A DNA stretch of 61,285 nt from Stegostoma tigrinum. Its lineage: Eukaryota. Shown here piece after piece: positions 1,892-56,039 of this stretch. Both the position numbers and the translations under genes were made by a program. The notes under the pieces are model-generated. The model was not told the DNA's origin. It did no database searches and worked only from the letters and a program-made list of their open reading frames with translations. The stretch covers positions 11,118,822-11,180,106 of the forward strand of contig NC_081387.1 of NCBI RefSeq assembly GCF_030684315.1, given 5' to 3'. How positions within the stretch are numbered: position 1 is the first letter of the stretch; every line of letters starts with the position of its first letter.

Positions 1892-1940
1892 CTGCAGAGA
1901 GCTCTCCACACAGAAGCCCCAGCACGAACAGTCGGATCAT
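1892..1940 (-). CDS. MHC class I gene C, exon 1 (signal peptide MIRLFVLGLLCGELSA); rest of gene presumably left of the window
   Basis: 49-nt exon ATG..GCAG|GTGGGT, near-identical to the gene B leader at 23015-23063, with paralogous 5'UTR and promoter. Confidence 0.85.
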
Positions 1941-2060: not shown

Positions 2061-2210
2061 CTGATTGGTCCCAAACTATCATTGATCCAATCAGAATAAA
2101 AAGAATCAGTGAGTCATCTGTCTCCGGAAGAATAGATTTCAAACGGGTTGCGAATTCGCGCATTGACTCCTGGAAACTTCCCAAACAGATCCACACCTTT
2201 CACTTTCAGA
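2061..2210 (-). promoter_or_regulatory. Gene C promoter: ISRE, kB-like site, S, X1/X2, Y box and a second CCAAT
   Basis: Minus strand reads GAAAGTGAAAG (ISRE)..GGGAAGTTTCC..CAACCC (S)..CCGGAGACAGA-TGACTCA (X1-X2)-15 nt-CTGATTGG (Y)-18 nt-CCAATCAG. Confidence 0.8.
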
Positions 2211-9281: not shown

Positions 9282-9895
9282 TGCAGACAGTTCAGGTCAC
9301 CATGTGGTTGAAAGGACATTCAGGTATTGTAGAGGGTGCAGAGAAGAATGACAATGACAATGTCAGAAATATGTGAGTGAATATTATCAGGGAAAGGATT
9401 GGCAGGCTGGGTGTCTCTGGAATAATAAATCCCAAAGGATGGATCAACAGAGATCTTTAAGTGGATAAAACATTTTGATAGAGTGGATGCAGAGCGCGTG
9501 TTTGGTGAAGAAACTCAAGATTACCAACACAAGACAATCACCAAAAATTCCAAAAGGAATTCAAAAGAAACTTCTCCAGCCAAAGAATGGGGAGAATGTG
9601 AAAGTTGGTGCTACAGGAAGCCTGACTTGTTCAAATGTATTTAAGTGGAAATTAGAAAGGAATAGCAAGTGTCAATGACAGATTTAGATCAGGAAGGATC
9701 AGGATAAAAGTGAGGATATACTGATTGGACCAAATGACCTGGATGTATGCAGTATATCCTGTATAACACACATTTTTCTTTACTTTCTTGCTCTCTGTCT
9801 CTGTCTCCCTGCCTCCCCTCTCTCTTTGTGTTGGTCTCTCTCCCTCCTTTTTTTTTCTGTCATTCGCTCTGGTTTTTTCTCTCTTTATTCGACAG

Positions 9896-11691
9896 ATCTG
9901 AAGTCTCTCTCCCAGGTTCCTGTTATCGTTGGGATTGTATTTGGAGTCCTTGGGATCATCGCTCTCACTGCTGGGGCTGTCATCATTTACAAGAAGAAAT
10001 GTAAGGGTTTGTGTTAAAATTGCAGCCTCTCTCTGGGGTCTCAGCATGTTGGAGAGCCAGAAGGGAGATGGCCATAAAATAGTGAAGGAACATTGTAAGC
10101 AGTTTTGGGTCCAATGTCTGAGAAAGGATGTGCTGCCCTTGGGAATCCAGAGGAGGTTTACAAGAATGATCCCTGGGTTGAAGGGTTTGTCAAATGAGGA
10201 GTGGGTGAGAACTCTGGGTCTGTGTTTCCTGGAGTTTTGAAGGTCGGGGGTGAATCTCATTGAAACTTACAGATTACTGAGAGGCCTGGATAGAGTGGAT
10301 GTGGAGAAGATGTTTCCATGAGCAGGAGAGACAAGGACCAAAGGGGCCAGTATAGTGTAAGAAGGGACAATCCTTTAGAACTGAGGAGGAATTTCCTCAG
10401 CCAGACAGTGGTGATTCTTTGGAAACCCATTGTTGCAGGAGGGTGTGGAGGCCAAGACACTAAGCGTCCTTAAGACAGGGATAGTTAGGTATTTAATTGG
10501 TAAGCGGATGAAGGGTTATGCAGAAAAGGCAGGTGAATGGGTTTGAGGAATACATCAACCACAATTGAATGATGGAGCAAGCCCGATGTACCAAATAGCC
10601 TAAATCTGCTGCAGTATCTTCTGGTCCTCGGTTATTTGTTTGGGTTAGGAGGGTGTGCAAGGAATCTCTGTGTTTAGGAGTCGGTCTTTGTGTTAGCAAT
10701 GGCTCAGGCTGTGGGGAGAGGGCCTCCATTTTTTGAAGGAGGGTCTGCAATGGTGCCCTGCTTCTCAGGATAATGTGGAAGGTCTCAGGGTTCGGACTCT
10801 CACGTTATGAACGTAACATCAGATATTTCAGATTGGGGCTGGCCCTCAGTTAAGTGTTGGGCATCAGCAGATCAGGGCAATGTGGGCATGAGGGGCTGAA
10901 TCTAGATGGGAGTGAGAGTCTCCAGCTTTTCTTCTGATTTTCTCTCAGTCTCTCGACACTCACTGAACGTTCCTTGATTTACAGGAGTGAGGAGCAACTA
11001 CAATCGCGTAAACAGTGAGCCGACAGTGCACATATCTCTGTTACTGTTTGACTAACTCATTTCTGTTTCAGACAAAGATCCATAAAATGCTGGAGATCTG
11101 AAACACAAAAAGAACAGAAATTACTAAAGAAACTCCACAGTTCTGGCAGCATCTATCACGAAAAAAATGTTAACATTTTGAGTCCTTTGGAGTTCTGTTG
11201 GGAGTGTCACTGGACCCAAAGCATTAATTGTGCTTTCTCTCTGCAGATGATGTCTCAGGTGTTGAGTTTCTCCAGTAATGTCAGTTTTTGTTGTTTGTCT
11301 GGTCTAGTCTTGACTGGTGTGGTCTGTTTGTCTTTCATTCTTCTCTCGCTCTCTCATTTCTCCTCAGGTGCTCTCTCCCTCTCTCTCGTGCGTTCTCTTT
11401 ATGACTTTCATTTGCCTCCCCTCATACTCTCTATCTCTCATTTCTCCTGCTGTTGAACTGTCTCTTTTATTTGTCTCTCTCATGCTTTCTCTGTCAATTC
11501 TACGATTCATGCCATCTCCCGCACTCCCTCTCTCTTGTTTCTCTCTCCTGCACTCTGTCATTCTTCCTCTCATGTCTGATGTCTCCATCATATTTTCTCT
11601 TGCTGTGATAATGAACAGTATTTAATGCCTCTCTTTCCATTAACAGCTTCTGACGAAAGGTCATCTTGTCACAGTTCAACCACTACCTGAG
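9896..11691 (+). pseudogene. Orphan 3' half of an MHC class I gene (A): TM exon 9896-10000, cytoplasmic exons 10985-11014 and 11647-11691
   Basis: TM DLKSLSQVPVIVGIVFGVLGIIALTAGAVIIYKKK; tail VRSNYNRVN/TSDERSSCHSSTTT*; canonical AG/GT sites; paralogous to 33731-35558; TM-to-tail splice makes T|GA stop; no alpha3 exon found upstream. Confidence 0.8.
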
Positions 11692-12579
11692 GTATGATTG
11701 GGGTTGGTCAATGTTGGGAGCAGATCATTATAATTGGGATATTGGAGCTGGTTTTAATTATAAATCTGAGTGTGGACTCTGAGCTCAGTGTCTTTCTCTC
11801 TCATCATCACTAAAGACCAGCTTCCGTACTGACCTTGTAGAAATGGTTGCTGCTGTAAGGGTGTCAACCTCGAGATAGCTTTGAGCGGTGGGGTTTGGGC
11901 TTAGAGAAACAACCATAAACATCTCATCCTGGATGTGGCCTTCTGTCACCTGCTCAACTTTCTCAAGTAAGTCAATATTCTGTAAGATCTTGCTGCAGTT
12001 GGCTCCTGGAGTTTGGTGTTGCTCTTCCAGGATTCTGAATCACCGAATGTTTGCAGAATGCAGTGTGGTGGGTAGGGCCTGGATCTGATGGAGAACTCGC
12101 AGCAGTTCAGGAGACCAGACTGTGAGCAGTTTTCGCATCTCATAGGGAGTGCAGAGGAGGCAGACAACAGTGAAATGTAGACATCAAGGGTTAAATCGCA
12201 CAGAGATTTCAGAAAAAAACTGGGGTTGTGTTCCCTGAAATGTAGAAGGTTAAGGGCTGACTAAATGGAGGTTTTCAAGAAATTAAGCGAGGGGAACTAT
12301 TTCCACTGGTTAGGGTGTGTAGTTTCAGACTAGATTCAGTGTAATTAGAGCCAGGCCAATCCAGAGTGAAACTTGGAAACTTCGACACACACAAGGTGGG
12401 AAATGGTTAGAATGCTCTTCCTCAATAGGAAATTAATGCAAAATAAACATTACAGATTTAAAGTCAGTAAAACTCATAATTAAGGGACATGTGGAAGACC
12501 GGCAAATAGATTGAGACGACAAACCATCTATGATCTCCTTGAATAGTAGAACATGGTAGAACAACTTTGGTGTTTTTGT

Positions 12580-15162: not shown

Positions 15163-15338
15163 TATCAGAGATAATGGGAACTGCAGATGCTGGAGATTCC
15201 AAGATAATAAAATGTGAGGCTGGATGAACACAGCAGGCCAAGCAGCATCTCAGGAGCACAAAAGCTGACGTTTCGGGCCTAGACCCTGAAGGGTCTAGGC
15301 CCGAAACGTCAGCTTTTGTGCTCCTGAGATGCTCCATA
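15163..15338. mobile_element. Palindromic non-autonomous PLE-terminus element with 16-bp TSD
   Basis: Inverted arms meet at ..ctagaccc|tgaagggtctag..; TSD GGCTCCTGAATAAAGG at 15147-15162 and 15339-15354. Confidence 0.85.
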
Positions 15339-15380
15339 GGCTCCTGAATAAAGGCATTTTGCCAGAAATGCTTCCCGAAC

Positions 15381-22528: not shown

Positions 22529-22794
22529 ATTTTGCAATCATTTTTCCCTTGTCTGAGCAATACATCTGAAAATGTCTCCTGACGTCCTGATGGTATGGCT
22601 GCAGAGTTGGGGTCTAGCGCTTTGGCTTTTGAGGGAGATGACACTGGAGTTCAGATCATTGGACGCTCTAGCAGCTCCGATGGGTTGAATGGCCTCGCCC
22701 TTTCCGGAAATGTTTCTCAATCGAATTATTGCCATTTCCCAGCAACTGAAGTGTCGGTCTGGCTGGGTCATTCCGATACCGAAAGGAATTCCTC

Positions 22795-22884
22795 AAACCT
22801 TTCTGCGATCTATTCTTCCGGAGACTGAGGACTCAATGATTCCTTTTATTCTGATTGGTCCCAAACTATCATTGATCCAATCAG
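22795..22884 (+). promoter_or_regulatory. Gene B SXY module plus second CCAAT
   Basis: AAACCT (S)..CCGGAGACTGA-GGACTCA (X1, altered X2)-15 nt-CTGATTGG (22851-22858)-18 nt-CCAATCAG (22877-22884). Confidence 0.8.
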
Positions 22885-23014: not shown

Positions 23015-23063
23015 ATGATCAGACTGTTAGTGCTCGGGCTTCTGTGTGGAGAGCTCTCTGCCG
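23015..23063 (+). CDS. Gene B exon 1, signal peptide MIRLLVLGLLCGELSA
   Basis: ATG 130 bp after the second CCAAT box; hydrophobic; phase-1 donor G|GTGGGT; in frame with alpha1. Confidence 0.88.
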
Positions 23064-26000
23064 GTGGGTAACTGGGGGGCAATGCCAGGCAGGGTCCAGG
23101 TGCATTAGTCCTCAGTCAGTCAGCAATGGGATGTTGGGGTCAGTACTAGTCTGGGTCCTGGTGCATTAGTCCTCAGTCAGAGAGCAATGGGATGTGGGGG
23201 GCAGTACCAGGCTGCGTCCTGGTGCATTAGTCCTCAGTCAGTCAGTAATGGGATGTTGGGGTCAGTACCAGGCTGCGTCCTGGTGCATTAGTCCTCAGTC
23301 AGTCAGCAATGGGATGTTGGGGTCAGTACCAGGCTGGGTCCTGGTGCATTAGTCCTCAGTCAACGGGGTAAGAGGATGTGGCGGGGGGGGGGGGGGTGCG
23401 CGGTGGCGGTAGTGCCTGGTTAGGTACGATGACTTTAACACTCAATCATGTTACTGTTAGGATAAAAAAGTGTGGAGCTGGATGAACACATCTTCGTAGG
23501 TGCTGCTTGGCCTGCTGTGTTCATCCAGCTCCACACTTTTTTAAAATCTCGGATTCTCCAACATCTGCAGTTCCCATTATCTCTGATACTGTTAGAATAG
23601 TTGACCCTTGAGAGTTTGTACAACCATGGGTAGCTCTGTTTCAAGGTACTATTATGTTTCACTTTAAATTTTGGAGCAGAATGCCCTATTTTGTTTAAGC
23701 AGGTACGGGTCACTTTATAGGACAGGTATATTTCCTACATCCATGTTTGTGAGCATTTCTCCTGCACTAATAAATCGGAACTGATTAGAATGTTTCCGTC
23801 TCTGATGGTTTTGAATATTTGAATAATACGCAATTCTTTGACCTCTTACACGCTCAGTAAATAAGGTAGTCAGGAAGATTTCAACTCTGAGATAATGGGA
23901 ATTGCCGATGCTGGAGAATCCAAGATAACAAAGTGTGCAGCTGGATGAACACAGCAGGCCAAGCAGCATCTCAGGAGCACAAAAGCTGATTTTTCGGGCC
24001 GAGACCCTTACGGAAACGTCAGCTTTTGTGCACCTAAGATGCTGCTTGGCCTGCTGTGTTCATCCAGCCCGACACTTTGTTACCTTAGATTTCAGCTCTG
24101 TATTCTTTATCCCTTTGCATGGGAATCACCATTTTGTAGAGTGCAACTTAGTTGTGACTGTTGATTATACTATTGAAGTAAATAACCAAATATACTGTTG
24201 CAACCACAGCACATACAGCTGGAATTGGAATACAACATTTGGAGCTATTGCAATCAAAAAAGACACATTATTAATCAGGTTTCACAGTATTAAGAAAATT
24301 CAAGGGAGTGAATACATATTTTTACCTGGGACCATGAACAGATGTGGTTAAAAATGACAGCTCACCACCACACTCTCGAGGAAATTCGGGATGGGCAGAA
24401 AATGCTGCCCTAAACAGTGATGCCCACATGCTATGAATGAAGAAAATAAACTGTTTTTGGGTGTTCCATTATGTGTGATATTGCTGTGGAGATGGGTGGA
24501 GCTCAGTGGGACTCCTTATTTTGAGTTTAGCTTCCTGAATTTAGTTAGGGCTCAGTCAGCCGGCAAGTATAATGCAATGTTTGGAAAAGCACAGAGAGAC
24601 CCTAAAGAATGAAGCTGGAAACACTCAGAAGGCCAGTCAGTGGAAATAGTTCGTCAACACTGACGGGAGACTGAGGTGTTCGAACTTTTAAGGCAGCGGC
24701 AGAGCAAAGGTGGAGATGTGATAGAGGTGAAGGCCAGAACAGATAAAATAACAGAAGGTCTCATAGTGCAACATCCAGAAAGGGTATGCAGTTTTAAGTG
24801 GCTTATGTAGGTCAGTTTTTAGCCACTGTTAATCTCCAGCATGGTGATAGTGTGGAATTAGTAATGCCACTGAATGTCAAGATGGATGGTTAGACTCTAT
24901 ATTGTTTGAGGGTTTTGTGGTGGTCATTGCCTGTGAATTGTGTGGTGTTGCTTGGCACATATCAGCCCAATCCTGAATCTTGTCCAGGTCTTTCTTAATT
25001 TGAACTTGGACTGCTTAATGTAGATGATTCGGACTTGGGGATCCAAGCATAATGTGTCAAAGCTTGCAAATGACACTAAGTTGAGTGGTGGAGAAAAGTG
25101 TGCAGAGGACACTGAAAGTCTGCAGAAGGACATGGATCAGTTAAGTGAGTGGGCATGGGTCTGGTAGATGGAGTACTATGTTGATAAATGTGAGATCATC
25201 CATTTTGGTAGCAATAACAGCAAAATGGAATATTATTGAAGTGATGAAAAATATACTGCAACATACTGCTGTGCAGAGGGAGCTGGGTGTCTTTGTGCAT
25301 GAATCACAAAGTGCTGGTTTGCGGGTGCAGTGGGTAATTAGGAAGGCAAATGGAACATTGTCCTTCATTGCTAGAGGAATGGAGTTCAAAAGTGGGGAGG
25401 CTATGCTGCAGCTTTACAGGGTGCTGGTGAGGCCAGGAGTGCTGTGTATTGTTGTGGTCACCATACTTGAGGAAGGATGGACTGGCACTGGAGGGGTACA
25501 GAGGCAATTCATAAGGTTGATTCTGATGTTGAAAGGTTTGGCTTATGTTGAGAGATTGAGTAGACTAGGACTATCCTCACTGGAATTTTAAAGCATGAGG
25601 GGGGACACCTTTATAGGAATGTATAATATAATGAAGGGAATAGATCAGATAGAATCAGGGAGGTTGTTCCCACTGGTTGAACTAGGGAGCCTCAAATAGT
25701 GAGACCAAATTTAGGACTGAGTTGGGGAGGAACTCCTTCACCAAAAGGTTGTGAATCTATGGAATGCCCTGCCCCATGAAGCAGTTGAGGCCACCTAATT
25801 GAATGTTTTTAAGGCAAAGATAGATTTTTGAACAGTGAAGGAATTGAAGGTAGTGGTGAGCGTGTGGGTAAGTGAGTCTATGAAAAGATCAGCCATGGGC
25901 TTATTGAATGGAGGAGCAGGCTCAAGGGGCCAGATGGCTCCTGTTTCTTATGTTCTTATGTTGATTATCAGCGGAGTTGTGAATGGTACGGAATATTGTG

Positions 26001-29000
26001 CAGTTATCTGCCAACATCCCTGTGTCTGACCTTATGATGGAGGGAGAATCAGTATTGAAACACTAGAAGAGGGTGCAATGACTGCATAGAGGCTGGTATC
26101 CCGTCACCATGTCACCTTTTATTTATTTGTGCACAGTACACTGGCTGTGGCCAGCCAGCCTGGAGTCAGTCCCCTGAACTGAGGAGATCCTCATTTCCTG
26201 ATTATATTAGTAGGTCAGGGCTTTCCTAAGTGGCCCAGCTGAGCAACACCGAACAATGATCTTTTAGTCAACAAGGTCAACCTGGTTCCAGTGGTTGAGT
26301 CTGGAGAAAACTCTGCAGTAAGATCCTGGAGATGAGCTGACCGACCTCCTAAAACCACCATCATCTTCCTTTGTCCCACTTAAGACTTTAGCCAGTGGAG
26401 AGATTTCTAATGATTTCCCAGTGCCTGTGGCTTTGCTTGGTCAAATGTATGATGCTGTACTTGGTGAAATGTGGCTTTGAATTCAAGAGCTGCCACTTTC
26501 ACCTCATCTGTGGAGTTCAGCTGTTTTTGTCTTTGTTTTCTTGGTTGGACTGTAATGAGATGAGAAGCTGTGCTTCAGCGAAAAGCAAACCAAATGTTAT
26601 TAAACAATTTATTGCTGACCTTGATAACTCCCTCAGCAACCCCATTAATCATCTTGCTGATGACCAAGAGTAGCCTGATGTGATGGGAACTTTGTATTGG
26701 ATTTAACCTGCCTTTTGTGCACAGGACAATACCTGGCCATTGCTGAGCCAATGTCAGTGTTGTCCCTATATTAGGACAGCTTAGCAAAGATGTAGGGAAT
26801 TTGGGAGTACAAGTCTTTCGTACTATTACAAGAAAATTGTCAGGATTCATAGCCTTTGCAGCATCCAGTGTCTTCAGTCATTTCTTGATGTCACAAAGAC
26901 TGAATGGAATTGGCTGAAGACAGGAATCTGTGATGTGGACACCATAGGAGGAGAGGACAGTGGATCATCCACTTGACCCTTCCGGCTGAAGGTGTTTACA
27001 GCAGCTTCAGCTTTGTCGTTCAGCTGGGCCATGGGGATATTTCTGGAGCTTCATCCTGTTGTGAATTGCTTGCGACCACCACACTCACAACTTGGTGAAA
27101 GACGATTACAGAGCTGGATGTCAGACCTGTCGATTGTGGTATGGCTTGATTTTCTCCATTGCGAGTTGGTACCACTGTTTGACATGCAAAAGTCCTGTAG
27201 CTTCACCACATTGACAGCTTACTTTTAGGTCTGCCAGGTGCTGCTCCTGGCTTGCCTTCCTGCGCTCTTCATTGAACTGGCGTTATGATCCTAAATGATA
27301 TTACTTCGACACAACTCAATTCTCAGAATGACATTTATTAAGATAGTTTTTTTATGTGCCGATTGTCCGTGGGACATTCACAGAGGTTACGAATTTCCTT
27401 ATACAGAATTGCGGTTTTTAACATAATTTGTTGAAAAAAATTAAGGTATCCAATTATAGAAGACAGTTAGAAAAATATCAAGATAACAGCAAAACCAAGT
27501 TTCAACCTGTTTCCCAACACTACCCAATGACATGAAACACCGAAACAGAAAATAGGAGCAGGAGAGGATATAGGTTTAAGGTGAGAGGGCAAAGATTTAA
27601 AAGGGACCCAAGGGACATCTTTTTAATGCAGAGGGTGGTGCTAGAGGATCTGTTGGAGGCTGGTACAATTGCAGCATTTAAAAAAACATCTGGATGGGTA
27701 TATGAATAGGAAGGGTTTTGCGGGCTCTGGGTCAAATGCTGACAAAGGTATAAATCTAGTCACAGTGGGCGTGGATGAGTTGGACTGAAGGGTCTGTTTC
27801 TGAGCTGTGTATCTCAATGGCACTGTGACTGTGAGCAGACCATTTGGCCCTTCAAGCCTGCACCACAATTCAAGTCGTTCCTGACTGATCATGCAATTTC
27901 AGGACTCCATTCCCGCTTTCTCTCCATACCCCTCGATCCACATCCAGCTCACTCTTGAGCATATCGAGCAAACTGGCTCCAACAGTTTTGAGTCTTAGAG
28001 AATTCCAAGGGTTCACAGCTCACAGCCAGTCCCACTCTCCTGTCTTTGTCGCTTTACTCTGCAATTTCCATCTCTTCAAGTAATTATCCAATATTTGATT
28101 GAAAGTCTCAATTGAATCTTCCACCATCACACTCCCAATCACTGCATCCTAATCTTCCAAAGGGTCAGTATTCAAATCTCTGCCTTTCCTGCTACATTCT
28201 CTCAAAGATTTGCTTGGTGTACAGAATTCTGAGGCCAGTGTGCCGTGACGATTTACGATCAGTCTGTGTGGAACCTCAGAGCAGCTGTGTGGTATTCTGA
28301 TGGATATTAATGATCCAGATCTGTACAGACAACATACTACAATTTGCAAACAATGCAAATCTTGCAGCATTGTAAACGATGACGAGGATCCTGACAGACT
28401 TCAAGAGGAGACGGAAATGTGGGTAGAACGGGCCAACAAGTGGCAACTCAAATTTAATGTGCAAAAATGCCAATTTATACTTTTTGACAGGAAGAAAAAA
28501 GAAGTCAAAAGAGGGGTAATATTCCAAAGCCTATGTGGAGACCTGGAGCTATATGTGTAAAAATAATAAGAGCCAGGCAGGCTGGTTCAGAAAGCGGAAG
28601 GTGGGAACCTGACCTCCTGAATACAGGCGTAGAGTATAAAGTGAGGTGTGAGTGGAAACGTGTGACCGGTCTTTTGAGCTGCATACCCTATTGGATTTCC
28701 TCTCTGTGTTTCAGAAACTCACTCTCTTCGGTATTTCCTGAGTGCTATGACTCCAGTTTCTGGTTACCCGCAGTTTGTCATTGTTGGATATGTGGACGGG
28801 GTCCAGTTTATCAAGTACGACGGCGATCAGAAGGTGTTGATTCCTCGGGAACAGTGGATGGTGGAGAGCGAGGGACGTAAGGCCTGGTTGCGGAAACTAT
28901 ACCTTGCCCAGTTGCAGGAGCTGGATTTCAGAGCCTTTGTTCCCAGGATCATGGAACGGATCAACCAGACAAGTGGTGAGTCCATACCACCCCACTGCTC

Positions 29001-32000
29001 GGATTCTCCGGGGGGGTTACTTGGAACCGAGGAGCAGGAATAGGCCATTCAGCCCCTCTAGCTTGTTCCATTTTTCATTGAAACCATGGCTGATCCGTGG
29101 CCTAAATCCACATACTCGTTTTTGGTCCGTGTCCCTTAAAAGCTGTGTTTATCAAAAATGCATCTGTCACAGATTTAGAAATTGACAACTGACCCAGCAA
29201 CCTTTGCCATTTGTTGCAAACATCTACCACCCTTTGTGTGTCGGAGTGCTTCGTAACATCTCTGTTAGGACAGTCTGGACCCACCCCTAGTGAGTCCCCA
29301 ACCAGTGGGAAAAAAATTCTTATCGACTGTGTCCCTTTCCCTGTTTCATATCTCGTTGTTCTGCAGGTTCAGGGGTTATTTGGGGAAAGCCATGTGGGGA
29401 GTTGATGTTGTTTTGATCAGTTCCAGACAGAGTTTCTCGTGGAGATGAACCCTGTTGGCAGTTCACATTTCTGATTAACAGGGATGATGGTCTGTCTCTG
29501 ACTGGCAACTTGTGTTTCTGATTGACAGGGATCTACACATACCAGATGATGACTGGCTGTGACCTGAGGGACGATGTGGTTCTGGTTGGGTTCAATCAGT
29601 ACGCGTGGAATGGACGAGATGTCCTCAGCTTTGACAAGGAGCACATGGTGTGGGTGAGCCCGGTTCCTTGGGGAGAGAGCATCAAAAACAGGTGGGACCA
29701 GGACGTGTCAGGCAACCGGCAATGGAAGCAATACCTGGAGAAGGAGTGTGGCACATGGCTGAGGAAATACCTGGAGTACGGACAGAGAGAACTGGAAGTT
29801 GGTGAGTGAGGCAGGGAGTGAGGGTCAGTGAGTGAATGAGTGGGGATGGGGAGGGAAGTGCTGTGAGTCAAGGGCCTATTTTGATCGCATCTGATATTAT
29901 TACATGACAAATTAGATCATGGACAAGATCCTAAGATTGCGTGATCTTATTTTGATGGATAATGTACTTTCTGTTGAGGTTCATTCAGATTTTCTTTTGT
30001 CAGCTTTAAAAGGAATCTGGATGGGTCCATGAATAGGAAGGGTTTAGACTGATATGGGCCAAATAGAGGCAAATGAGACAACATTAAAGTAGGATATTTG
30101 TTCAGCATGAATGGGTTAGCCCAAAGGGTCTGTTTCTGTGCTGTACAACTCTAAAACTCTTTAACTCAAATGGTGCCACTCAGCTTTCGGACTGTCTCAT
30201 AAATTTGTGACAGAGATATAAAGAGTTGTTTCTGAACTTTAGTTTATTAACTTTAATTTAAGTACTCCACATGCATCATTTCCATATGTTAGATTGAAAC
30301 GACTAAATACTGTGCATGTCTAATTTCCCAATCCTTAACGTCGTATAAGAAGATAGAAATAAACACATCTTCCACCTATGAAACAGATCCAATTATTATT
30401 AAACACCCAGGAAAAGTATAAACCTGTTAATGTCTTTGAGAAATAAAAAGAAACAAACCAGCATTTGGATCGGACTGACAACCCACCCTTGGTACAGTAC
30501 CCAAGTCAGATCTTGTACAGTACTCACTGCAGGATCCTGATATTTAACACCTCAGTGGATTTAAGTAATTTATAAATTTAATTTTGGAATGGAGCCGCAG
30601 ATAATTCTTGGAAGGAACTGTCATACACCTGAACTTCAACATACTCGGCTAGAAGCAACCTTTTCAGGGCTTTATCCCAACATATCTGGTCTAGGACGAA
30701 CAAGAACTGTTCACTCTAAGGTAATCTTTCAGGATACACTCTTCTTGCCTCCAGAACACTGGTCTACATAGCCATCCTGTTCCAAGAATTTCAGAGAATG
30801 GCTCAAAACCAAAACTAAAATTGCCGTTTCTAATCTGTGGGTCTGACTCTTTATCTTAGAAAAAGCCTCTTCTGACCTTCTACAGCAAAGCTCGTTCATA
30901 TAGTTACATCATAAAACTCGACCAAAATACATACAATTGAGTTAATTTGAAGTTAAGTCTCAACCTATTCACTATGGCTGCAAAAATACTCTCAAGTTAA
31001 TGCTTAACTCTCAAGCATACGTGAAGCTCACCACCGAATGAACTCAGAAACCCAAACTGGCAATAAATAACATTTGTTCATAAATATAGATAAATAGACC
31101 CCACAGTTTTCTTTACAGGGAGCATGTCGGGGATTGAGGCAGTCAGACTGAGTGTTTTGGGGTAGCTGCGTAAGAGGGGAGGGCGTGTGGTTGAGGTGAG
31201 ACTTGTTCAGTTGACTGGTGCCTGGGCCTTTCTCTATCCTGATGTTCGTGCACTGACTCATGTTCCTCTCTCCCTCAGCTGCCCCCATTGTGTCCCTTAC
31301 CCGTCTGGGCGATTCCAACCGGCTGTCCTGTCTCGTCACCGGGTTTTACCCCCAAGCCATCGAGGTGACTCTGTGGAGGGATGGAGTGTTGATCGATGAG
31401 ACCCTGTCCACTGGAATCTTACCCAATCATGACAGGACCTACCAGATCCGGAAATGGATAGAATTTGATCCGGTGGATCAGGCCGAGTACTCCTGTCGGG
31501 TGGAACACAGTGGGCTGGAGGACAAGCTGGTGGTGATTTATGGTAAGAACTTTTTCTCATTATTAGGATAGAGAGGGGGCAAAAATATTGACATCAGTGT
31601 GTCACATTGCTCGCACCATTGCTGGAGAGCAGTCATAAAGACAGTGAATCCAGGGGTGCTATGGTAGGACATATCCCAGTGTATCCTGGAGTACATTGCT
31701 ATTTCCAGCATCTTAAAGATCCAAGAACACTGCAGGGTTAAGGAATATGGTATATCATCTGACATTAGTGTGACAGAACCTGCTGTATCCATTGAATTCT
31801 ATAGTGGGGCCAGGTGGATCCAATAGAATATGAAATAAAAACCGAATGATGTGTGGATGCCGATCAGGAACAAAAACTGAAGTTGCTGGAAAAGATCAGC
31901 AGGTCTGGCATCATTTGTGAGGAAGAAATCAGAGTTAAGGTTTCGGGTCCGGTGAGGTCATTCTGAGTAAGGGTCCCTGGACCTGAAACATTAACTCTGA

Positions 32001-33687
32001 CTATTTTCTTCACAGATGCTGCCAGACCTGCTGAGCTTTTCCGGAAACTTCTGTTTTTGTTCCACATAGAATATGAATTTGTTGATTTGGGTAACCTGGG
32101 TTAATGAGGGAGCCCTGGCTGACAGATGTAAACAGGAGATTTAGCTGTTGCCTTCACCCTTTGATTTATTATTCTACCCATCAATCCTTAAGTGCCAGTT
32201 ACAAAATCTCCTTAATCCTGTGGAGTCGGGTTGGAATCAAATAAACACAAACAAGGTTTGAGAACTTCAACTCCTAATCATTGTGAACAGTTTTACTGTA
32301 ATTTGGGAAAACAAAGTGCAAAGCTGGATGAACACAGCAGACCAAGCAGCGTCAGAGGAGCAGGAAGGCTGATGTTTGAAGCCTAGACCGTTCTTCTGAA
32401 AAAAAAGTCTAGGCCCGAAACATCAGCCTTCCTGCTCCTCTGATGCTACTTGGCCTGCTGTGTTTATCCAGCTCTATATGCCTTGTGATCTCAGATTCTC
32501 CAGCATCTGCAGTTTCTAGTACCCCTTTACTGTAATGAAATAGATTGAAACAAAAACAGCTGATGGGGTGGTCAGAAAAAAAGAAACAGAATTGTAACAG
32601 GGGATTCAGAAGGTTTCCTCAGTCAAAGGACAGTGGCAGTGAGAGAAAACAGTGCGTGCCTGAAGTAAACTGTTTCTCTCGCATGTGGCCGGCATTGGCA
32701 TTCCTGCTGCCATTTCACTCCCATCCCAGGGCCAGGAATATCGGTTTATCGTGGTACAGAAGCGTTGAGCTGCCTCCCGCTGATAGATACCCCAGTGGTG
32801 GTGTGCTTCCCCTGGAAGAGTCCATTCTGGTTGTACACTTCCTGGACACCCTTCCAGTCACTGCTGACAATATCAGCCCATGGGCACAGAAAGATCCCGT
32901 CTTGGTGAAACTAAAACCGCTGGTGGTGACGGGGGAAACAAATGTGCCGTCACAACCAGGATTGAAGCTTTTCTGGACCCTACAGCATCACTCAGCCCCC
33001 AACTGTGAATTCTCCCATGACCATGAATATTGTTTTATTTAAACAGAGTTTCAGAATTAAATTCCCATTTTTATTATGGGCCGCAGCACCAAACATTCTC
33101 AAGAAGAGTCAGGAATCTCAGGCAGTCCAAGGAATGAGAGACATTTCCAGATATTCTACGAGAGGGCAGAGATGAGCTTGAGATAAGGCTTTGTGACAGG
33201 AGACAAGCAATCCAAAATCCCAAGGACAGGAATAATAAATTCTGAAGGGTGAGACTATCGAGATCTTTAAATGGATAAAACATTTTGATAGAGTGGGTGC
33301 ACAGCGTGTGTTTGGTGAAGAAACTCGAGATTACCAACACAAGACAATCACGAAAAATTCCAGGAGGAATTCAAAAGAAACTTCTCCAGCCAAAGAAAGG
33401 GGAGAATGTGAAGCCTGGTGCTGCAGGGAGCCTGACTTGTTCAAATGTATTTAAGTGGAAATTAGAAAGGAATAGCAAGTGTCAATGACGGATTTAGATC
33501 AGGAAGGAGCTTCAGTGGATAAAAGTGAGGATATACTGATTGGACCAAATGACCTGAATGTATGCAGTATATCCTGTATAACACACATTTTTCTTTACTT
33601 TCTTGCTGTCTGTCTCTGTCTCCCTGCCTCCCCTCTCTCTTTGTCTGTCTCTCTCCCACATTTTTTCTTCTCTCTCACTCGCTCTGA

Positions 33688-33726
<39 letters not shown>

Positions 33727-35557
33727 ACAGACCCGACGTCTCTCTCCCAGGTTCCTGTCATTGTTGGGGTTGTATTTGGAGTCCTTGGGATCATTGCTGT
33801 CGCTGTTGGGGTTGTCATCATTTACAAGAAGAAAGGTAAGGGTTTGTGTTGAAAATTGCAGCTTCTCTCTGGGATCTCAGGGAGTTGCAGAGCCAGAAGG
33901 GAGTTGGCCAGAATAAAGCGAAGGAACATTGTGAGCACTTTTGGGCCCCATGTCTAAGAAAGGATGTGCTGCCCTTGGGAATCCAGAAGAGGTTTACAAG
34001 AATGATCCCTGGGTTGAAGGGTTTGTCAAATGAGGAGTTGGTGAGAACTCTGGGTCTGTGTTTCCTGGAGTTTTGAAGGTCGGGGGTGAATCTCATTGAA
34101 ACTTACAGATTACTGAGAGGCCTGGATAGAGTGGATGTGGAGATTTTTCCATGAGCAGGAGAGACTAGGACCAAAGGGGCCAGTATAGTGTGAGAAGGGA
34201 CAATCCTTTATAATTGAGGAGGAACTTCCTCAGCCAGACAATGGTGATTCTGTGGAAATCCATTGTTGCTGGAGGGTGTGGAGGCCAAGACACTGAACAT
34301 CCTTAAGACGGATAGTTAGATATTTGATTGGTAAGGGGATCAAGGGTTATAGGGGAAGGCAGGGGAATGGGGTTGAGAAACATGTCAGTCACGATTGAAT
34401 GGTGGAGCATTCCTGATGGGCTGAATGGCCTAATTCTGCTGCAGCGTCTCATGGTCCCCGGCTGTTTGCTTGGGTTCGGAGGGTGGGCAAGGAACCTCTG
34501 TGTTTATGACTCAGTCTCTGGGTTAGCAATGGCTGAGGCTGTGGGGAGAGGGCCTCAGTTTGTGAAGGAGGGTCTGTGACAGTGCCATTTCTCAGGGTAA
34601 GGTGGAAGGTCTCAGGGTTCAGAGTCTCAGGTTGTGAATGTGAAGTCAGATATTTCAGATTGTGTTTGGCTCTCAGTTCACTGTTGGGCTTCAGCAGCTC
34701 AGAGAGAAGTGGACACAAGGGGCTGAGTCTAATTGGGAGTGAGGGTCTCCAACATTTCTTCTGATTTTCTGACAGTCTCTCGACACTCACCAAACATTCC
34801 TTGATTTACAGGAGGAGAGAAGAAGAAGTACAGCCCCACAAACGGTAAGCTGATAATTCACCTCTCGGCATCTGTGTTTGTGTACGATGAGCTGCTTTTC
34901 TGTTTCAAACAAAAAATCTGCAAATGCTGGAGATCTGAAACAGAAAAGAAAACATAAATTGCTGAGGCAACTAATTAGGTTTGTCAGCATCTGTGGAGAG
35001 AAAACAAGAAACATTTTGAGTCCAGTGACATTTCGTTCTGGGAGTTCTGTTGAGGGGTCACTGAATCCAAAGTGTTAACTCTGCTGTCTGTCTCCTCAGA
35101 TGCTGCCAGACATAGTGTGTTTCTCAAGCAGTTTCTGTTTCTGTTCTCTGTCTGATCTGTCTGTCTGTCTGTCTGTCATTCTTCTCTTGGTCTCGTGTGC
35201 TCTCTGTCTCTCGTTTAGCCCTCTCATACAATCTCTCTTTCGTACATTTCTCCCTCTCACACTCTTTACGTCTCTGGCTCTCATTTCTCTCAATTGTTTG
35301 TTCTGTCTCTCATTTTTCCTCTCGTGCTTTCTCTCTTATTTGTTTCTCTCTATCATGCTCTTTCTGTCGCTCTCTCATTTTGTTCTGTTTCTCTCGTTTC
35401 TTGCTGTCTATTATTGTCTCACCCTCTTGTTTCTCGCTGCCTCTGTTACATATTCTCTGTCTCATTCTTTCTGTTGCTGTGATAATGAATGATTTTTAAT
35501 CTTGTGTTTCCCTTAACAGCTTCTGATGAAACAAGCTCCAGTTCTGTCATTTCCTGA
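23015..35557 (+). CDS. MHC class I heavy chain (gene B), complete 7-exon CDS, 340 aa, probably non-classical
   Basis: Exons 23015-23063, 28715-28975, 29529-29801, 31279-31542, 33731-33835, 34812-34844, 35520-35557; all phase-1 GT-AG introns; 1023 nt, open frame. Confidence 0.93.
23090..23361. repeat. 60-bp minisatellite (~4.5 copies) at start of gene B intron 1
   Basis: Unit ggtgcattagtcctcagtcagtcagcaatgggatgttggggtcagtaccaggctgggtcct. Confidence 0.9.
23461..23586. mobile_element. Short palindromic PLE-terminus insertion
   Basis: Arms aaaaaagtgtggagctggatgaacac / gtgttcatccagctccacactttttt; TSD TACTGTTAG. Confidence 0.75.
23888..24090. mobile_element. Palindromic PLE-terminus insertion
   Basis: Inverted arms of the same terminal sequence. 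Confidence 0.75.
25030..25960 (+). mobile_element. Degenerate CR1-like LINE 3' fragment
   Basis: IRKANGTLSFIARGMEFKS..LQLYRVLVRP in ORF 25145..25591. Confidence 0.8.
26300..27290 (-). mobile_element. Degenerate CR1/L2-like LINE RT fragment
   Basis: MNPDNFLVIVRKTCTPKF resembles the GPDNIP..LK.CAPEL motif. Confidence 0.55.
28715..28975 (+). CDS. Gene B exon 2, alpha1 domain
   Basis: THSLRYFLSAMTPVSGYPQFVIVGYVDGVQFIKYD..PREQWM..MERINQTS; NQT glycosylation site. Confidence 0.95.
29529..29801 (+). CDS. Gene B exon 3, alpha2 domain
   Basis: GIYTYQMMTGCDL..WVSPVPWGESIKNRWD..YLEKECGTWLRKYLEYG; Cys pair present. Confidence 0.95.
31279..31542 (+). CDS. Gene B exon 4, alpha3 Ig C1-set domain
   Basis: LSCLVTGFYPQAIEVTLWRDG..LPNHDRTYQ..YSCRVEHSGL. 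Confidence 0.95.
31834..32065. mobile_element. Palindromic PLE-terminus insertion (older subfamily), shared with D at 50830-51057
   Basis: Inverted arms; TSD ATAGAATATGA. Confidence 0.75.
32305..32525. mobile_element. Palindromic PLE-terminus insertion specific to gene B
   Basis: TSD TTTACTGTAAT; absent at the paralogous site ~50590. Confidence 0.75.
32560..32990 (+). mobile_element. Probable Gypsy/LTR-retrotransposon pol remnant in intron 4 (copy at 50130-50570, minus)
   Basis: FLDTLPVTADNISPWAQKDPVLVKLK resembles the RNase H-integrase linker of Gypsy pol. Confidence 0.5.
33731..33835 (+). CDS. Gene B exon 5, connecting peptide and TM
   Basis: DPTSLSQVPVIVGVVFGVLGIIAVAVGVVIIYKKK; (CT)n tract before the acceptor. 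Confidence 0.92.
34812..34844 (+). CDS. Gene B exon 6, cytoplasmic (GGEKKKYSPTN)
   Basis: 33-nt exon, tttacag|..|gtaag, conserved tail Tyr; paralogous to 10985-11014. Confidence 0.8.
35520..35557 (+). CDS. Gene B exon 7, cytoplasmic (ASDETSSSSVIS*)
   Basis: taacag acceptor; SD motif of class I tails; TGA G|gtatg. Confidence 0.8.
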
Positions 35558-35654
35558 GGTATGAACATTGTTGTTCATTGTTGGGAACAGGTCATTGTAA
35601 CTGGGGGATTGGAGCTGGTGTGAATTGGACAATCTGGAGGGTGTACTCTGTGCT

Positions 35655-35692
<38 letters not shown>

Positions 35693-36175
35693 GTGTGATC
35701 ACTAACGACAAGCTTACATAGTTCAACACGGAGCATTTAGACTGACCTCCTGGAGAGGGCTGATCCTGTCTGGGTGTAAGCCTCAATGTACCTCTGAGGG
35801 GTGGGGTTTGGGCTATAGAAATAACCGGACACTTTTTGTCCTGGATGCAGCCTTTCTAAAGGGAGTCAATACGATGACAGTTCTCACTGTAGTTTGTTCC
35901 TTGAGTTCAGCGTTGCTGTCCTAGAATTCTGCATTTCTGGGTGCTTGTGGAATGCAGAGAAGTGGGTGGGGTCTGGACCTGATAGAGAACTGAGCGCAGT
36001 TCAGGAAACTAGATTGTGAGGGGATTTATGGTATTGGAGGGAGTGCAGTGTCGATAGACCTGAATGAAAGCTGGTCTTCAAGGGTTAAATGACACAGAGA
36101 TTAAACAAACTGGGGCCGTGTTCCCTAAAATGTAGAACGTTAAGGGCTGATTTGATGGAGGTTTTGAAATATTAG

Positions 36176-49995: not shown

Positions 49996-52650
49996 TTCCT
50001 GTCTCTTCTTGAGAATGTTCGGTGCTGTGGCCCATAACAAAAATGGGAATTTAATTCTGAAACTCTGTTTAAATAAAACAATCTTCATGGTTATGGGAGA
50101 ATACACAGTTTGGCGCTGAGTGATGCTGTAGGGTCCAGAAAAGCTTCAATCCTGGTTGTGACGGCACATTTGTTTCCCCCGTCACCACCAGCGGTTTTAG
50201 TTTCACCAAGACGGGATCTTTCTGTGCCCACAGGCTGATATTGTCAGCAGTGACTGGAAGGGTGTCCAGGAAGTTTACAACCAGAATGGACTCTTCCAGG
50301 GGAAGCACACCACCACTGGGGTATCTATCAGCGGGAGGCAGCTCAACGCTTCTGTACCACGTTAAACCAATATTCCTGGCCCTGGGATGGGAGTGAAATG
50401 GCAGCAGGAATGCCAATGCCGGCCACATGCCTCCTCAGAGCAAGAGAAACAGTTTACTTCAGGCACGCACTGTTTTCTCTTACTGCCACTGTCCTTTGAC
50501 TGAGGAGACCTTCTGAATCCCCTGTTACAATTCTGTTTCTTTTTTTCTGACCACCCCAAACAGCTGTTTTTGTTTGAATTTACATAATTACAATAAAGTT
50601 GTTCACAATGATTAGGAGCTGAAGTTCTCAAATCTTGTTTGTCTTTTTTTGATTCCAACCCAACTCCACGGGATTGAGGAGATTTTGTAACCGGCTCTTA
50701 AAGACTGATGGGTATAATAATAAATCAAAGGGTCAAGCAACAGCTAAATCTCCTGTTTACATCTGTCAGCCAGGGCTCCCTGATTAGCCCAGGTTAACAA
50801 CCCCACTCAGGAAACTCATATTCTATGAGGAACAAAAACAGAAGTTGCTGGAAAAGCTCAGCAGGTCTGGCAGCATCTGTGAGGAATAAATCAGAGTTAA
50901 GGTTTCGGGTCCAGTGGCACTTCCTCAGAATGTCCTCACTGGACGTGAAACCTTAACTCTGATTTATTTTCTTCACAGATGCTGCCAGGCTTGCTGAGGT
51001 TTTCCGGCAACTTCTATTTTTGTTCCTGATTTCCGCAGTACTTTCAGTTTTTCTTTCATATTCTCTGAGATCTACCTGGTCCTGATTCCAATCACTACAG
51101 GATTGGAAGGATAGAGCGGGTTCTGTCACACTAACACCGGATGTTATACCATGTACCTTAATTTTATAGCGTTCCTGGATATTTAAGATGCTGGAGTAGC
51201 ATCATCCTCCAGTATAAACTAGGCAAGGTCCTACTGTAACACCCCTAGATTCAGCGTCTTTATCACTGTTCTCTACCAATGGTATGAGCACTGTGCAACA
51301 CTTACAGTTAATATTAGCCCTCTCTCTATCCTCGGGTGTCCTGGTCAAGCAGCTCAGCAATGACCCTCCCTCCCACGATCCTGGTCTGAGTCTGTGTCCT
51401 CTCTAACCCCTCCTCACTCGCTTGCCCGCCCGCCCACCTGCCTGCCCCCCCTTTATTCACCCACCCACCTCCCCCCCTTGCTTGCACACCCACACCCCCC
51501 ACTCGCTCGCCTGCCCTACCCCATCAGTTGCCCACCCACCCTGACTCGACTGCCCTCCTCCCCCACCGCCCGCATTCACCTGTCAGCTCCCTCACTCAAC
51601 CTTCCCTCCCTCTCGCTTGTCCGTCTGCCCTCTCCCTTCACTTGCTCACTTTTTCTGCTCTTACTTGCCCGCCTGCCCCCTCACTCGCTCGCCCGCCTCT
51701 CCTCCCCTTCACTTGACCTCCCCTTCCTCTGGCTCACCCGCCTGTCCTGCCCCTCACTCGCCATCCCCTTCCTCTGGCTCACCCGTCTGCCGTCCCCCTT
51801 CACTTGCTTGCCTTCCCCTCACTTGCTTGCTTGCCCTCTCTCCCCTCTCACTCATCCACACTCCCACCCTTCCCCTTCACTCATCGACTCTCCATCCCTC
51901 CCCACCCCCTCACTCACCCACACGCCTTCACTCCCACCCATCCAGCTCCCTCTGTCCGTAATCCAAGTACTTCCTCAGCCACTCGACACACACCACCTCC
52001 AGGTAATGCTTCCACTGCTGATTATTCACACACTCATGGTCGCACCTGTTTTTGGCGCTCTCCCCCCAAAGGACTGGTGTACCCACACCATGTGATCCTT
52101 ATCGAAGCTCAGCAAATCTTGTCCATCCCATCCATACTGATTGAACCCAATTGTCGTCCCATCACTCCTTAGGTCAAAACCAGTCATCATTTGGTAGGTA
52201 TTGATCCCTGTCCATCAAAAATACAAGTTGCCAATCAGACACACTGAACCTTCACCCACTACAAGCACAGGCAATCAGGTTCAGGCACAACAGATAACTG
52301 AGCCCATTGCCACCAGTATCTGACTCCCAGATCCTAGGCCAATCCTGGCCTCCCCCCACTCCTGTAGGATGAGTCCCCGGGAAGGGCCAGCAAAGCCCTG
52401 GTGGGTCCGGCACATGAGCTTTGGAATACGACCTTGGAAATACAGCTACTGCTTCTGTGCGAGCATCATCTTCTGCTCTTAGGAATCCTGTCCCTTGCTC
52501 TCCACCATCCACTGCTTCCCGGGGATCGGTTGCTTCCAATCACTGTCCTACTTAATAAACTGGACCTTGTCCACATATCCGTCAAGCACAGAGTCCAAAA
52601 AGCCAGGAATTGGAGACACGCCGGTCAGGAAATACCAGAGAGAGTGGAGG
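49996..52650 (-). pseudogene. MHC class I pseudogene 5' half (D): alpha1 52391-52650, alpha2 ~51936-52207, alpha3 missing, intron-4 homology 49996-51332
   Basis: alpha1 LHSLWYFLTGVSPIPGF..GYVDKVQFIK*..QWMVESKG with 3 stops and no GT donor; alpha2 GINTYQMMTGFDL (Cys>Phe), 1-nt deletion after VW, ..YLEVVCVEWLRKYLDYG. Confidence 0.92.
51360..51935. repeat. C/T-rich low-complexity tract
   Basis: Degenerate ctcac/cttgcccgcctgccc repeats; G/A-rich on the D sense strand. Confidence 0.8.
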
Positions 52651-55600: not shown

Positions 55601-55850
55601 ACTATATCCTGGTCTTTTATGTTCTTGATGTAATAACTGTTTTGTATCCTGTCTTTGTCTGTTGTAAGAATTGTTTCATGTATCATGTCATTGTGAAATG
55701 TGAAATTGTTTTATGTATTATGCACTTAGTAAAGTATAAAAAGCGGGGACTGTCCGCTGCTCAGGGAGAATCGCTTACAAGACTCTGCACTCTGTGCCGG
55801 GTTAAGTACAATGATTCTCCGCAGCTTGTACTTGCTTGGTAATAAAGGAT

Positions 55851-56039
55851 AATAAAATGTGAGGCTGGATGAACACAGCAGGCCAAGCAGCATCTCAGGA
55901 GCACAAAAGCTGACGTTTCGGGCCTAGACCCTTCATCAGAGAGCTTTTGTGCTCCTGAGATGCTGCTTGGCCTGCTGTGTTCATCCAGCCTCACATTTTA
56001 TTATCTTGGAATCTCCAGCATCTGCAGTTCCCATTATCT
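55851..56039. mobile_element. Palindromic PLE-terminus insertion with intact hammerhead core on minus
   Basis: TSD TTGGTAATAAAGGAT at 55836-55850 and 56040-56054; ~60-bp perfect inverted arms. Confidence 0.85.

What the first reader, a model, noticed from the sequence alone, without database searches (positions are those of the whole stretch)
2061..2094. Exact 18-bp micro-inversion between paired CCAAT boxes distinguishes two MHC class I promoters
Seen: in gene orientation C reads CTGATTGG-ATCAATGATAGTTTGGGA-CCAATCAG and B (22851-22884) reads CTGATTGG-TCCCAAACTATCATTGAT-CCAATCAG. The spacers are perfect reverse complements while the flanks are collinear, and the two boxes form the 8-bp inverted repeat. 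The spacer is also fully conserved although the flanks have diverged. Inference: a hairpin or template-switch inversion, possibly a recurrent flip that changes the 3' context of each NF-Y site.
Basis: partly seen in the sequence, partly recalled or inferred. Interest (0 to 1): 0.7.

Follow-up and report, generated by a model that had tools for sequence, protein, structure and literature searches.

The report
Flipped spacer in shark MHC promoter
An 18-base stretch between two CCAAT boxes lies backwards in one of two neighbouring zebra shark MHC class I promoters; it is likely a one-off DNA copying slip of a known kind, and it would swap which of the two boxes binds the activator NF-Y well.

Summary
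Confirmed. The 34-mers at 2061-2094 and 22851-22884 are identical on the + strand while their flanks are inverted paralogues (about 90% alike). In gene orientation the 18-bp spacer is therefore exactly reverse-complemented between perfect 8-bp arms. The genes are two head-to-head MHC class I paralogues of zebra shark (C, B). The arms are the Y box of an X1-X2-Y-like module and a downstream CCAAT box. This matches the known class of inverted-repeat-flanked micro-inversions (17-33 bp; template switch or microhomology repair). A whale-shark read-through peptide fits B's orientation, so C probably flipped, once. The spacer's identity is not beyond chance (P 0.09-0.16). The useful twist: the spacer ends supply the -1/-2 flanks of both NF-Y sites, one favourable and one carrying the unfavourable T at -1. 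The flip would move the good site from the position-critical Y slot (B) to the downstream slot (C). No evidence for a recurrent switch. Raw reads, other individuals and other paralogues' DNA could not be examined.

The parts
2087..2094 (-). Gene C upstream arm, Y box (inverted CCAAT); after the flip its CCAAT strand has T at -1 (predicted weak NF-Y site)
   Evidence: PMC6843132 passages
2069..2086 (-). Gene C 18-bp spacer, inverted relative to B (likely the derived state)
   Evidence: polarity
2061..2068 (-). Gene C downstream arm, CCAAT box with G/A at -2/-1 (fits RRCCAATSR, predicted strong site)
2110..2116 (-). Gene C X2-like AP-1/CRE-type heptamer, 18 bp upstream of the ATTGG
   Evidence: spacing compared with PMC7753138 passages
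2120..2137 (-). 18-bp block identical in B and C directly upstream of X2; putative X1 (RFX) box, inferred from position
2172..2182 (-). NF-kB-like site, C only
   Evidence: 0.04 expected per 400 bp
2198..2207 (-). ISRE-like site, C only
   Evidence: 0.05 expected per 400 bp
1893..1940 (-). Gene C exon 1 (leader), 16 of 16 residues identical to the N-terminus of P0013 (XP_059495393.1); the rest of the gene lies left of the window
22808..22825 (+). Gene B putative X1 block
22829..22835 (+). Gene B X2 position, one mismatch to the heptamer, 18 bp upstream of the ATTGG
22851..22858 (+). Gene B upstream arm, Y box with favourable flank (fits RRCCAATSR on the lower strand)
22859..22876 (+). Gene B 18-bp spacer (likely the ancestral orientation)
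22877..22884 (+). Gene B downstream arm, CCAAT box with T at -1 (predicted weak site)
   Evidence: PMC6843132 passages
23015..35554 (+). Gene B coding exons: leader 23015-23062, alpha1 about 28714-28977, alpha2 about 29528-29800, alpha3 31278-31541, TM 33730-33837, cytoplasmic 34811-34843 and about 35520-35554; = P0003 (XP_059495504.1)

Best explanation
The 18 bases between the Y box and the CCAAT box are exactly inverted between two zebra shark MHC class I promoters, likely through a single replication or repair slip at the 8-bp inverted repeat in the lineage of gene C, and this would swap the strong and the weak NF-Y site. Shown: the inversion, the perfect arms abutting it, gene identity, and the position of the upstream arm 18 bp behind an X2-like element. 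Inferred mechanism: two polymerase switches at the arms, or microhomology-mediated break repair using the sister chromatid; sequence cannot tell these apart. Inferred polarity: B-type ancestral, C derived, after the B and C promoters last shared an ancestor (by duplication or gene conversion). Predicted consequence: B has a good NF-Y site in the enhanceosome (Y) slot and a poor one downstream; C has the reverse, so C would depend less on the RFX/NF-Y/NLRC5-type enhanceosome and more on the proximal CCAAT box and its ISRE and kB-like sites. I put about 0.45 on a measurable expression effect. Both arms survive the flip, so the cassette could flip again, but nothing indicates a programmed switch.
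For: Exact reverse complement between collinear flanks. Size 18 bp, pure, arms flush with the breakpoints: all 59 human-chimp micro-inversions were 17-33 bp and repeat-flanked, 45 of 59 pure, 23 of 59 with arms of 8 bp or more (PMC8755829, parts 1-3 of 5 read). Either strand folds an 8-bp stem of -6.0 to -6.4 kcal/mol, z about -3. Polarity: whale-shark model P0005 reads through the promoter; its 6 residues before the CCAAT box need 5 base changes from B's spacer and 10 from C's (973 of 200,000 random 18-mers reach 5 or fewer); likelihood B:C about 900 or more in all 9 settings; allowing one deletion gives 7-8 versus 12-13 changes, null 0.4-0.6%. In the 5'UTR and leader the whale peptide fits B at 5 codons and C at 5, with 11 private changes, so whale lies outside or level with B and C there. 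B and C exchange sequence: alpha1-alpha2 tree joins B with whale (100/100), alpha3-TM tree joins B with C (100/99) (17 of 23 proteins). NF-Y: T at -1 is described as extremely detrimental for mammalian NF-Y and essentially absent from ChIP-seq sites (PMC6843132 passages); only one box per promoter fits RRCCAATSR, and it is the opposite one in B and C. Orientation and distance of the NF-Y site relative to X decide NLRC5/CIITA transactivation in reporter assays (PMC7753138 passages).
Against: No raw reads or second individual were examined. Polarity rests on one back-translated, low-quality whale-shark model; against unrelated sequence the B fit is favoured only 2- to 32-fold, and the model seems to lack about 16 nt including the Y box. 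Whale as outgroup is weakly supported (P=0.056 against a star tree). The cassette is somewhat more alike than its flanks (34 of 34, P 0.01), which constraint on the boxes or a recent conversion must explain. NF-Y preferences are mammalian, untested in sharks. B and C also differ at X2, ISRE and kB sites, so an expression difference could have other causes. The S box was not identified. In mouse, the Y box contributed only partly to NLRC5 activity (PMC4374748 passages).
Confidence: 0.72

Rival explanations
1. Recurrent, reversible flip: the two NF-Y boxes maintain the inverted repeat, so the spacer flips repeatedly across shark class I paralogues and alleles and acts as a two-state regulatory toggle.
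For: Both arms are intact in both states. Spacer inversions recurred 2-5 times in four yeast genes (PMC8604942 passages), and template switching altered a yeast promoter's output (PMC13100816 abstract). B carries a second perfect 8-bp inverted repeat overlapping the spacer (22833-22875), possibly a trace of further template switching.
Against: Three observations (B, C, whale B-like) need one event. The recurrent yeast cases had arms longer than 9 bp and spacers of 2-5 bp; here the arm is 8 and the spacer 18. Definite micro-inversions are put at about five orders of magnitude rarer than substitutions (PMC8755829). A recombinase cannot loop a segment this short (argument in PMC8755829). Such repeats are common: 42 with arm of 8 or more and spacer 10-30 in this window.
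Confidence: 0.1
2. Inter-locus copying: because the genes are head-to-head, the cassette is a perfect 34-bp direct repeat on the chromosome, and C may have copied B's spacer in direct register through the 8-bp arms, or flipped it during a conversion event from B.
For: Explains 18 of 18 identity outright (otherwise P 0.09-0.16). B and C show sequence exchange in alpha3-TM (86 of 88 and 56 of 58 residues identical versus 56 of 87 and 58 of 91 in alpha1, alpha2).
Against: It needs 8-bp microhomology to win over about 300 bp of 90% homology in the other register, 20.8 kb away, while an identical template lies 18 bp away. The identity gain is only about 6- to 11-fold.
Confidence: 0.1
3. One event, but in B's lineage: C keeps the ancestral orientation.
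For: C keeps more canonical upstream elements (X2 heptamer, kB, ISRE), and the whale peptide starts with an exact match to C's X2, so C is the more ancestral promoter at some sites.
Against: The whale peptide fits B's spacer orientation; B's state puts the good NF-Y site in the canonical Y slot.
Confidence: 0.05
4. Assembly or polishing artefact at one locus.
For: The shared 34-mer is a repeat and a hairpin; no read-level check was possible.
Against: The change is clean, each copy keeps its own diagnostic flank variants on both sides, both genes lie on a 31.9-Mb sequence, and B's orientation has independent support from whale shark.
Confidence: 0.03

Closest known systems
Inverted-repeat-flanked micro-inversions between human and chimpanzee (Potapova, Kondrashov, Mirkin 2022, PMC8755829)
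   Same: Length within 17-33 bp, pure reverse complement, perfect arms flush with the breakpoints, arm length in their longest class (8 bp or more).
   Different: Seen between paralogues in one genome, in a shark; the arms are themselves transcription-factor boxes, whereas that study saw no functional bias.
Spacer inversion by template switching in yeast (PMC8604942) and template switching in yeast promoters (PMC13100816)
   Same: Perfect arms unchanged, spacer inverted, in principle reversible; promoter location with a possible effect on expression.
   Different: Yeast spacer inversions were 2-5 bp with arms over 9 bp in coding DNA; the promoter study concerns arm expansion. Recurrence and an expression effect are shown there, not here.
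W/S-X1-X2-Y module plus downstream CCAAT box of mammalian MHC class I promoters (PMC7866136, PMC4374748, PMC7753138, PMC4753418, PMC11266202)
   Same: Order X1-like, X2-like, ATTGG 18 bp behind X2, then a CCAAT box; kB- and ISRE-like sites upstream in C.
   Different: S box not identified; no TATAWA within 400 bp of either start codon; ISRE lies upstream of kB in C; no binding data for sharks.
Expanded shark nonclassical MHC class I families UBA and UEA (PMC10751288, PMC12562908)
   Same: Multicopy class I family present in all sharks hit by the search, with species-wise homogenised alpha3-TM.
   Different: Lineage not assigned here: no named UBA or UEA reference came up. UBA is my recalled guess from closeness to horn shark O19480 and to classical class I.
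Recombinase-driven invertible promoters (fim, hin; recalled)
   Same: A promoter segment between inverted repeats found in two orientations.
   Different: Those segments are hundreds of bases long, need a site-specific recombinase and flip within one locus; none of that is seen.

Membership tests
IR-flanked micro-inversion | Bubble of 15 bp or more that is the (near) exact reverse complement between otherwise collinear homologues | tested here: met
   18 of 18, flanks collinear
IR-flanked micro-inversion | Inverted repeat whose inner edges abut the inverted segment | tested here: met
   8-bp perfect arms at distance 0
IR-flanked micro-inversion | Polarised by an outgroup | tested here: inconclusive
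   Whale-shark peptide favours B as ancestral, indirect and low-quality
IR-flanked micro-inversion | Supported by raw reads | not tested
SXY module of MHC promoters | Y box (ATTGG) in inverted orientation 17-18 bp behind the X box | tested here: met
   18 bp from the end of the X2 heptamer in both genes; spacing from PMC7753138, where the X boundary may be drawn slightly differently
SXY module of MHC promoters | X2 (CREB/ATF/AP-1-type) element | tested here: met
   Exact heptamer in C at 2110-2116; one mismatch in B
SXY module of MHC promoters | X1 box bound by RFX | tested here: inconclusive
   An 18-bp block identical in B and C sits at the expected place; no matrix was scored
SXY module of MHC promoters | S box about 16 bp upstream of X | not tested
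SXY module of MHC promoters | Occupancy by RFX, NF-Y and NLRC5/CIITA | not testable with these tools
   Needs ChIP, EMSA or reporter assays
MHC class I alpha chain | Leader, MHC_I alpha1-alpha2, C1-set alpha3, TM and tail | tested here: met
   PF00129 and PF07654 above cut-off in both P0003 and P0013; exons mapped
Shark UBA nonclassical lineage | Clusters with named UBA sequences; lies in the UBA cluster of the MHC | not tested
   No named reference among the hits; PMC8454915 is not held; no genome held
Recombinase-driven invertible promoter | Segment long enough to loop, with a dedicated recombinase | tested here: not met
   18-bp segment; too short by the argument in PMC8755829
Recombinase-driven invertible promoter | Both orientations at one locus in a population or tissue | not tested
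   No reads available

The most novel reading that the evidence does not exclude
The Y box and CCAAT box of shark MHC class I promoters form a selection-maintained inverted repeat around an asymmetric spacer: a built-in evolutionary toggle that, by one reversible mutation, moves the single high-affinity NF-Y site in or out of the enhanceosome position and has flipped repeatedly across paralogues or alleles to retune their expression.
Probability: 0.08. Interest if true: 0.68.

Novelty: new member of a known kind. Interest (0 to 1): 0.3.

Why it matters
As a mutation it is ordinary. It matters modestly as a clean natural experiment: one event leaves both core boxes and all spacings intact yet exchanges their NF-Y flanks, giving a sharp reporter and EMSA prediction for how duplicated immune genes diverge in regulation. 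It also shows a mammal-like X1-X2-Y/CCAAT layout in shark class I promoters, which I did not find described in four searches on shark MHC (subscription papers are mostly missing from the library). The flip is also a low-homoplasy marker for dating exchange between these paralogues. If it proved recurrent, it would show binding-site symmetry creating its own regulatory mutation hotspot.

Tried and rejected
Whole genome: none held. Sequencing runs: one search with the alpha3 exon, DNA runs, library word PACBIO; none was listed, which is no evidence; no reads could be laid. Metagenome pattern scan: 34 of 34 loci match only the pattern, longest alignment 22 nt, so chance hits. Other read-through proteins: P0005 residues 1-72 found only itself among 17 candidates; the antisense-frame alignment found 0 of 18 candidates; the sense-frame profile gave 3 weak hits (E 5e-4 to 9e-4) whose best stretches end before the spacer residues. 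Earlier findings: no look-alike windows. A third promoter copy in the window: none; the alpha1-alpha2 pseudogene at 52646-51940 has no leader or promoter match. Spacer conservation as a sign of function: rejected as not significant. Background: in 35,023 aligned columns of repeats and paralogues this was the only clear micro-inversion; 2 other signals lie in palindromic repeat dimers and were not pursued. Whale-shark domain identities were mis-registered and were redone. Trees omit 6 of 23 proteins that my domain parser missed (P0006, P0008, P0009, P0020, P0028, P0033). Literature: the search on micro-inversion with CCAAT/NF-Y was swamped by NF-Y papers; none of the 25 listed of 2,170 held an inversion term, a weak test.

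Full report
Observation. The two 34-mers are identical on the + strand at 2061-2094 and 22851-22884; the pattern occurs 2 times against 0.01 expected. Their surroundings are an inverted duplicate, 1837-2157 against 23120-22786, differing at 6 of 46 bases upstream and 20 of 221 downstream. In gene orientation the arms and flanks are collinear while the spacers match at 6 of 18 positions and are exact reverse complements. Since the arms are each other's reverse complement, flipping 18 or 34 bases gives the same result. The spacer's identity is unremarkable: P=0.16 at 9.7% divergence (arithmetic) or 0.087 with indels counted; the whole 34-mer P=0.010; the longest identical run, 50 bp, P=0.055.

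Genes. The alpha2 exon of B is 100% identical to P0003, named a class I alpha chain of Stegostoma tigrinum (XP_059495504.1). All B exons map in 23015-35554, and 1940-1893 on the - strand encodes the 16-residue leader of P0013 (XP_059495393.1), gene C. Both carry PF00129 and PF07654 above cut-off. They are head-to-head, 21 kb apart. B and C share 15 of 16 leader, 56 of 87 alpha1, 58 of 91 alpha2, 86 of 88 alpha3 and 56 of 58 TM-tail residues. On 17 of 23 proteins, alpha1-alpha2 joins B with whale-shark P0005 (100/100), while alpha3-TM joins B with C (100/99). The genes are thus old paralogues whose 3' halves were homogenised after the species split (inference: gene conversion). The family is probably one of the expanded nonclassical lineages, UBA or UEA (PMC12562908, PMC10751288, passages); I did not assign it.

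Promoter anatomy. Upstream of the cassette lie an 18-bp block identical in B and C and an AP-1/CRE-type heptamer, exact in C and with one mismatch in B. The ATTGG follows 18 bp later in both. MHC promoters usually have ATTGG 17-18 bp behind the X box, and orientation and distance of this NF-Y site decide NLRC5 and CIITA transactivation (PMC7753138, passages; general layout PMC7866136, PMC4374748, passages). So the upstream arm is best read as the Y box and the downstream arm as the separate class I CCAAT box (listed after S-X-Y in bat and human promoters, PMC4753418; bound by NF-Y in a pig class I gene, PMC11266202; passages). C also has kB-like (2172-2182) and ISRE-like (2198-2207) sites that B lacks; neither has TATAWA in 400 bp (motifs recalled). 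The S box was not tested.

What the flip changes. Read on its CCAAT strand, each box takes its 5' flank from the spacer. One spacer end gives G and A at -2 and -1, the other gives T at -1. For mammalian NF-Y a T at -1 is described as extremely detrimental in vitro and essentially absent from ChIP-seq sites (PMC6843132, passages). Only one box per promoter fits RRCCAATSR: the Y box in B, the downstream box in C. The predicted effect is a weaker enhanceosome site and a stronger proximal CCAAT box in C. This is extrapolated from mammals and untested, and it is confounded by the X2, kB and ISRE differences.

Polarity. The whale-shark model P0005 has an N-terminal extension that reads through the CCAAT box and 5'UTR. 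Its six residues before the box need 5 base changes from B's spacer and 10 from C's; 973 of 200,000 random 18-mers score 5 or fewer. Likelihood ratios B:C were about 900 or more in all 9 settings, but B against unrelated sequence only 2 to 32. Residues 1-3 match C's X2 element exactly, 16 nt closer to the CCAAT box than in zebra shark. With one free deletion B orientation needs 7-8 changes and C orientation 12-13, with 0.4-0.6% of shuffled spacers as good. Over 56 downstream codons whale fits B at 5 and C at 5, with 11 private changes (P=0.056 against a star tree). Whale is therefore probably an outgroup for this region, making B ancestral and C derived. The evidence is indirect and comes from a model flagged low quality.

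Mechanism. Either strand can form an 8-bp stem (-6.0 and -6.4 kcal/mol, z about -3). The event fits the 59 definite human-chimpanzee micro-inversions: 17-33 bp, all repeat-flanked, 45 pure, 23 with arms of 8 bp or more. The authors consider double template switching plausible for longer perfect arms, propose microhomology-mediated break repair as a general route, and exclude homologous and site-specific recombination at this scale (PMC8755829, parts 1-3 of 5 read). Recurrent spacer flips are known in yeast, but with arms over 9 bp and spacers of 2-5 bp (PMC8604942, passages); promoter effects of template switching are shown for GRE2 (PMC13100816, abstract). The window holds 42 inverted repeats of similar size, and one clear flip in 35,023 aligned columns. 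An earlier finding of this scan (e1-5527012) reached a similar verdict for an archaeal case; it is an analogy, not evidence.

Limits. No genome is held and no sequencing run was listed, so assembly error, polymorphism and the state of other paralogues remain untested. Metagenome and protein detours gave nothing. No supplements were read; those of the shark MHC papers might hold promoter sequence. PMC8454915 is not held; PMC6523485 passages mention only conserved fish promoter elements.

Verdict. Real; a new member of a known kind of mutation; most likely a single flip in gene C (0.72). It carries a specific, cheap prediction about NF-Y site swapping in an X1-X2-Y-like shark promoter. A recurrent toggle is not excluded (about 0.08-0.1). 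Interest 0.3.

Noticed in passing
window 22833-22875: B has a second perfect 8-bp inverted repeat overlapping X2 and the spacer; it exists only with B's spacer orientation, and the base that perfects it (22836) differs from C and from the whale peptide, so it may be a B-specific quasi-palindrome correction.
   Followed up: partly
genes B and C (P0003, P0013): Mosaic divergence: promoter, leader, alpha3 and TM-tail nearly identical, alpha1-alpha2 about 64% identical; trees conflict between the halves, pointing to gene conversion that spares the binding groove. The other sharks also group by species in alpha3-TM.
   Followed up: partly
whale-shark protein P0005, residues 1-11: The read-through peptide suggests that the whale-shark orthologue of B lacks about 16 nt covering the Y box; low-quality model, unverified.
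   Followed up: partly
gene C isoforms P0026, P0027: Two of three listed isoforms of C use an alternative first exon that is not in the window, so probably inside intron 1: a possible second promoter for the gene with the weakened Y box.
   Followed up: no
window 2172-2207 versus 22740-22785: C keeps ISRE-like and kB-like sites directly next to a repeat insertion that starts at 2214; B has lost or never had them.
   Followed up: partly
window 51940-52646 (-): Broken class I pseudogene: alpha1 with stop codons, alpha2 with a frameshift; no leader or promoter match in the window.
   Followed up: partly
window 9419-12278 (+): Orphan copy of B's 3' end (33229-36168, 77% over 3 kb) with a TM exon at 9895-9999, lying between C and B without alpha exons.
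   Followed up: no
window 23073-23377: 61-bp tandem repeat at the start of B's intron 1, whose first unit is shared with C as a single copy.
   Followed up: no
window 15231-15346, 23917-24091, 32322-32473, 55848-56005: Short interspersed repeats repeatedly occur as palindromic dimers (arm up to 64 bp perfect at 55848-56005).
   Followed up: no
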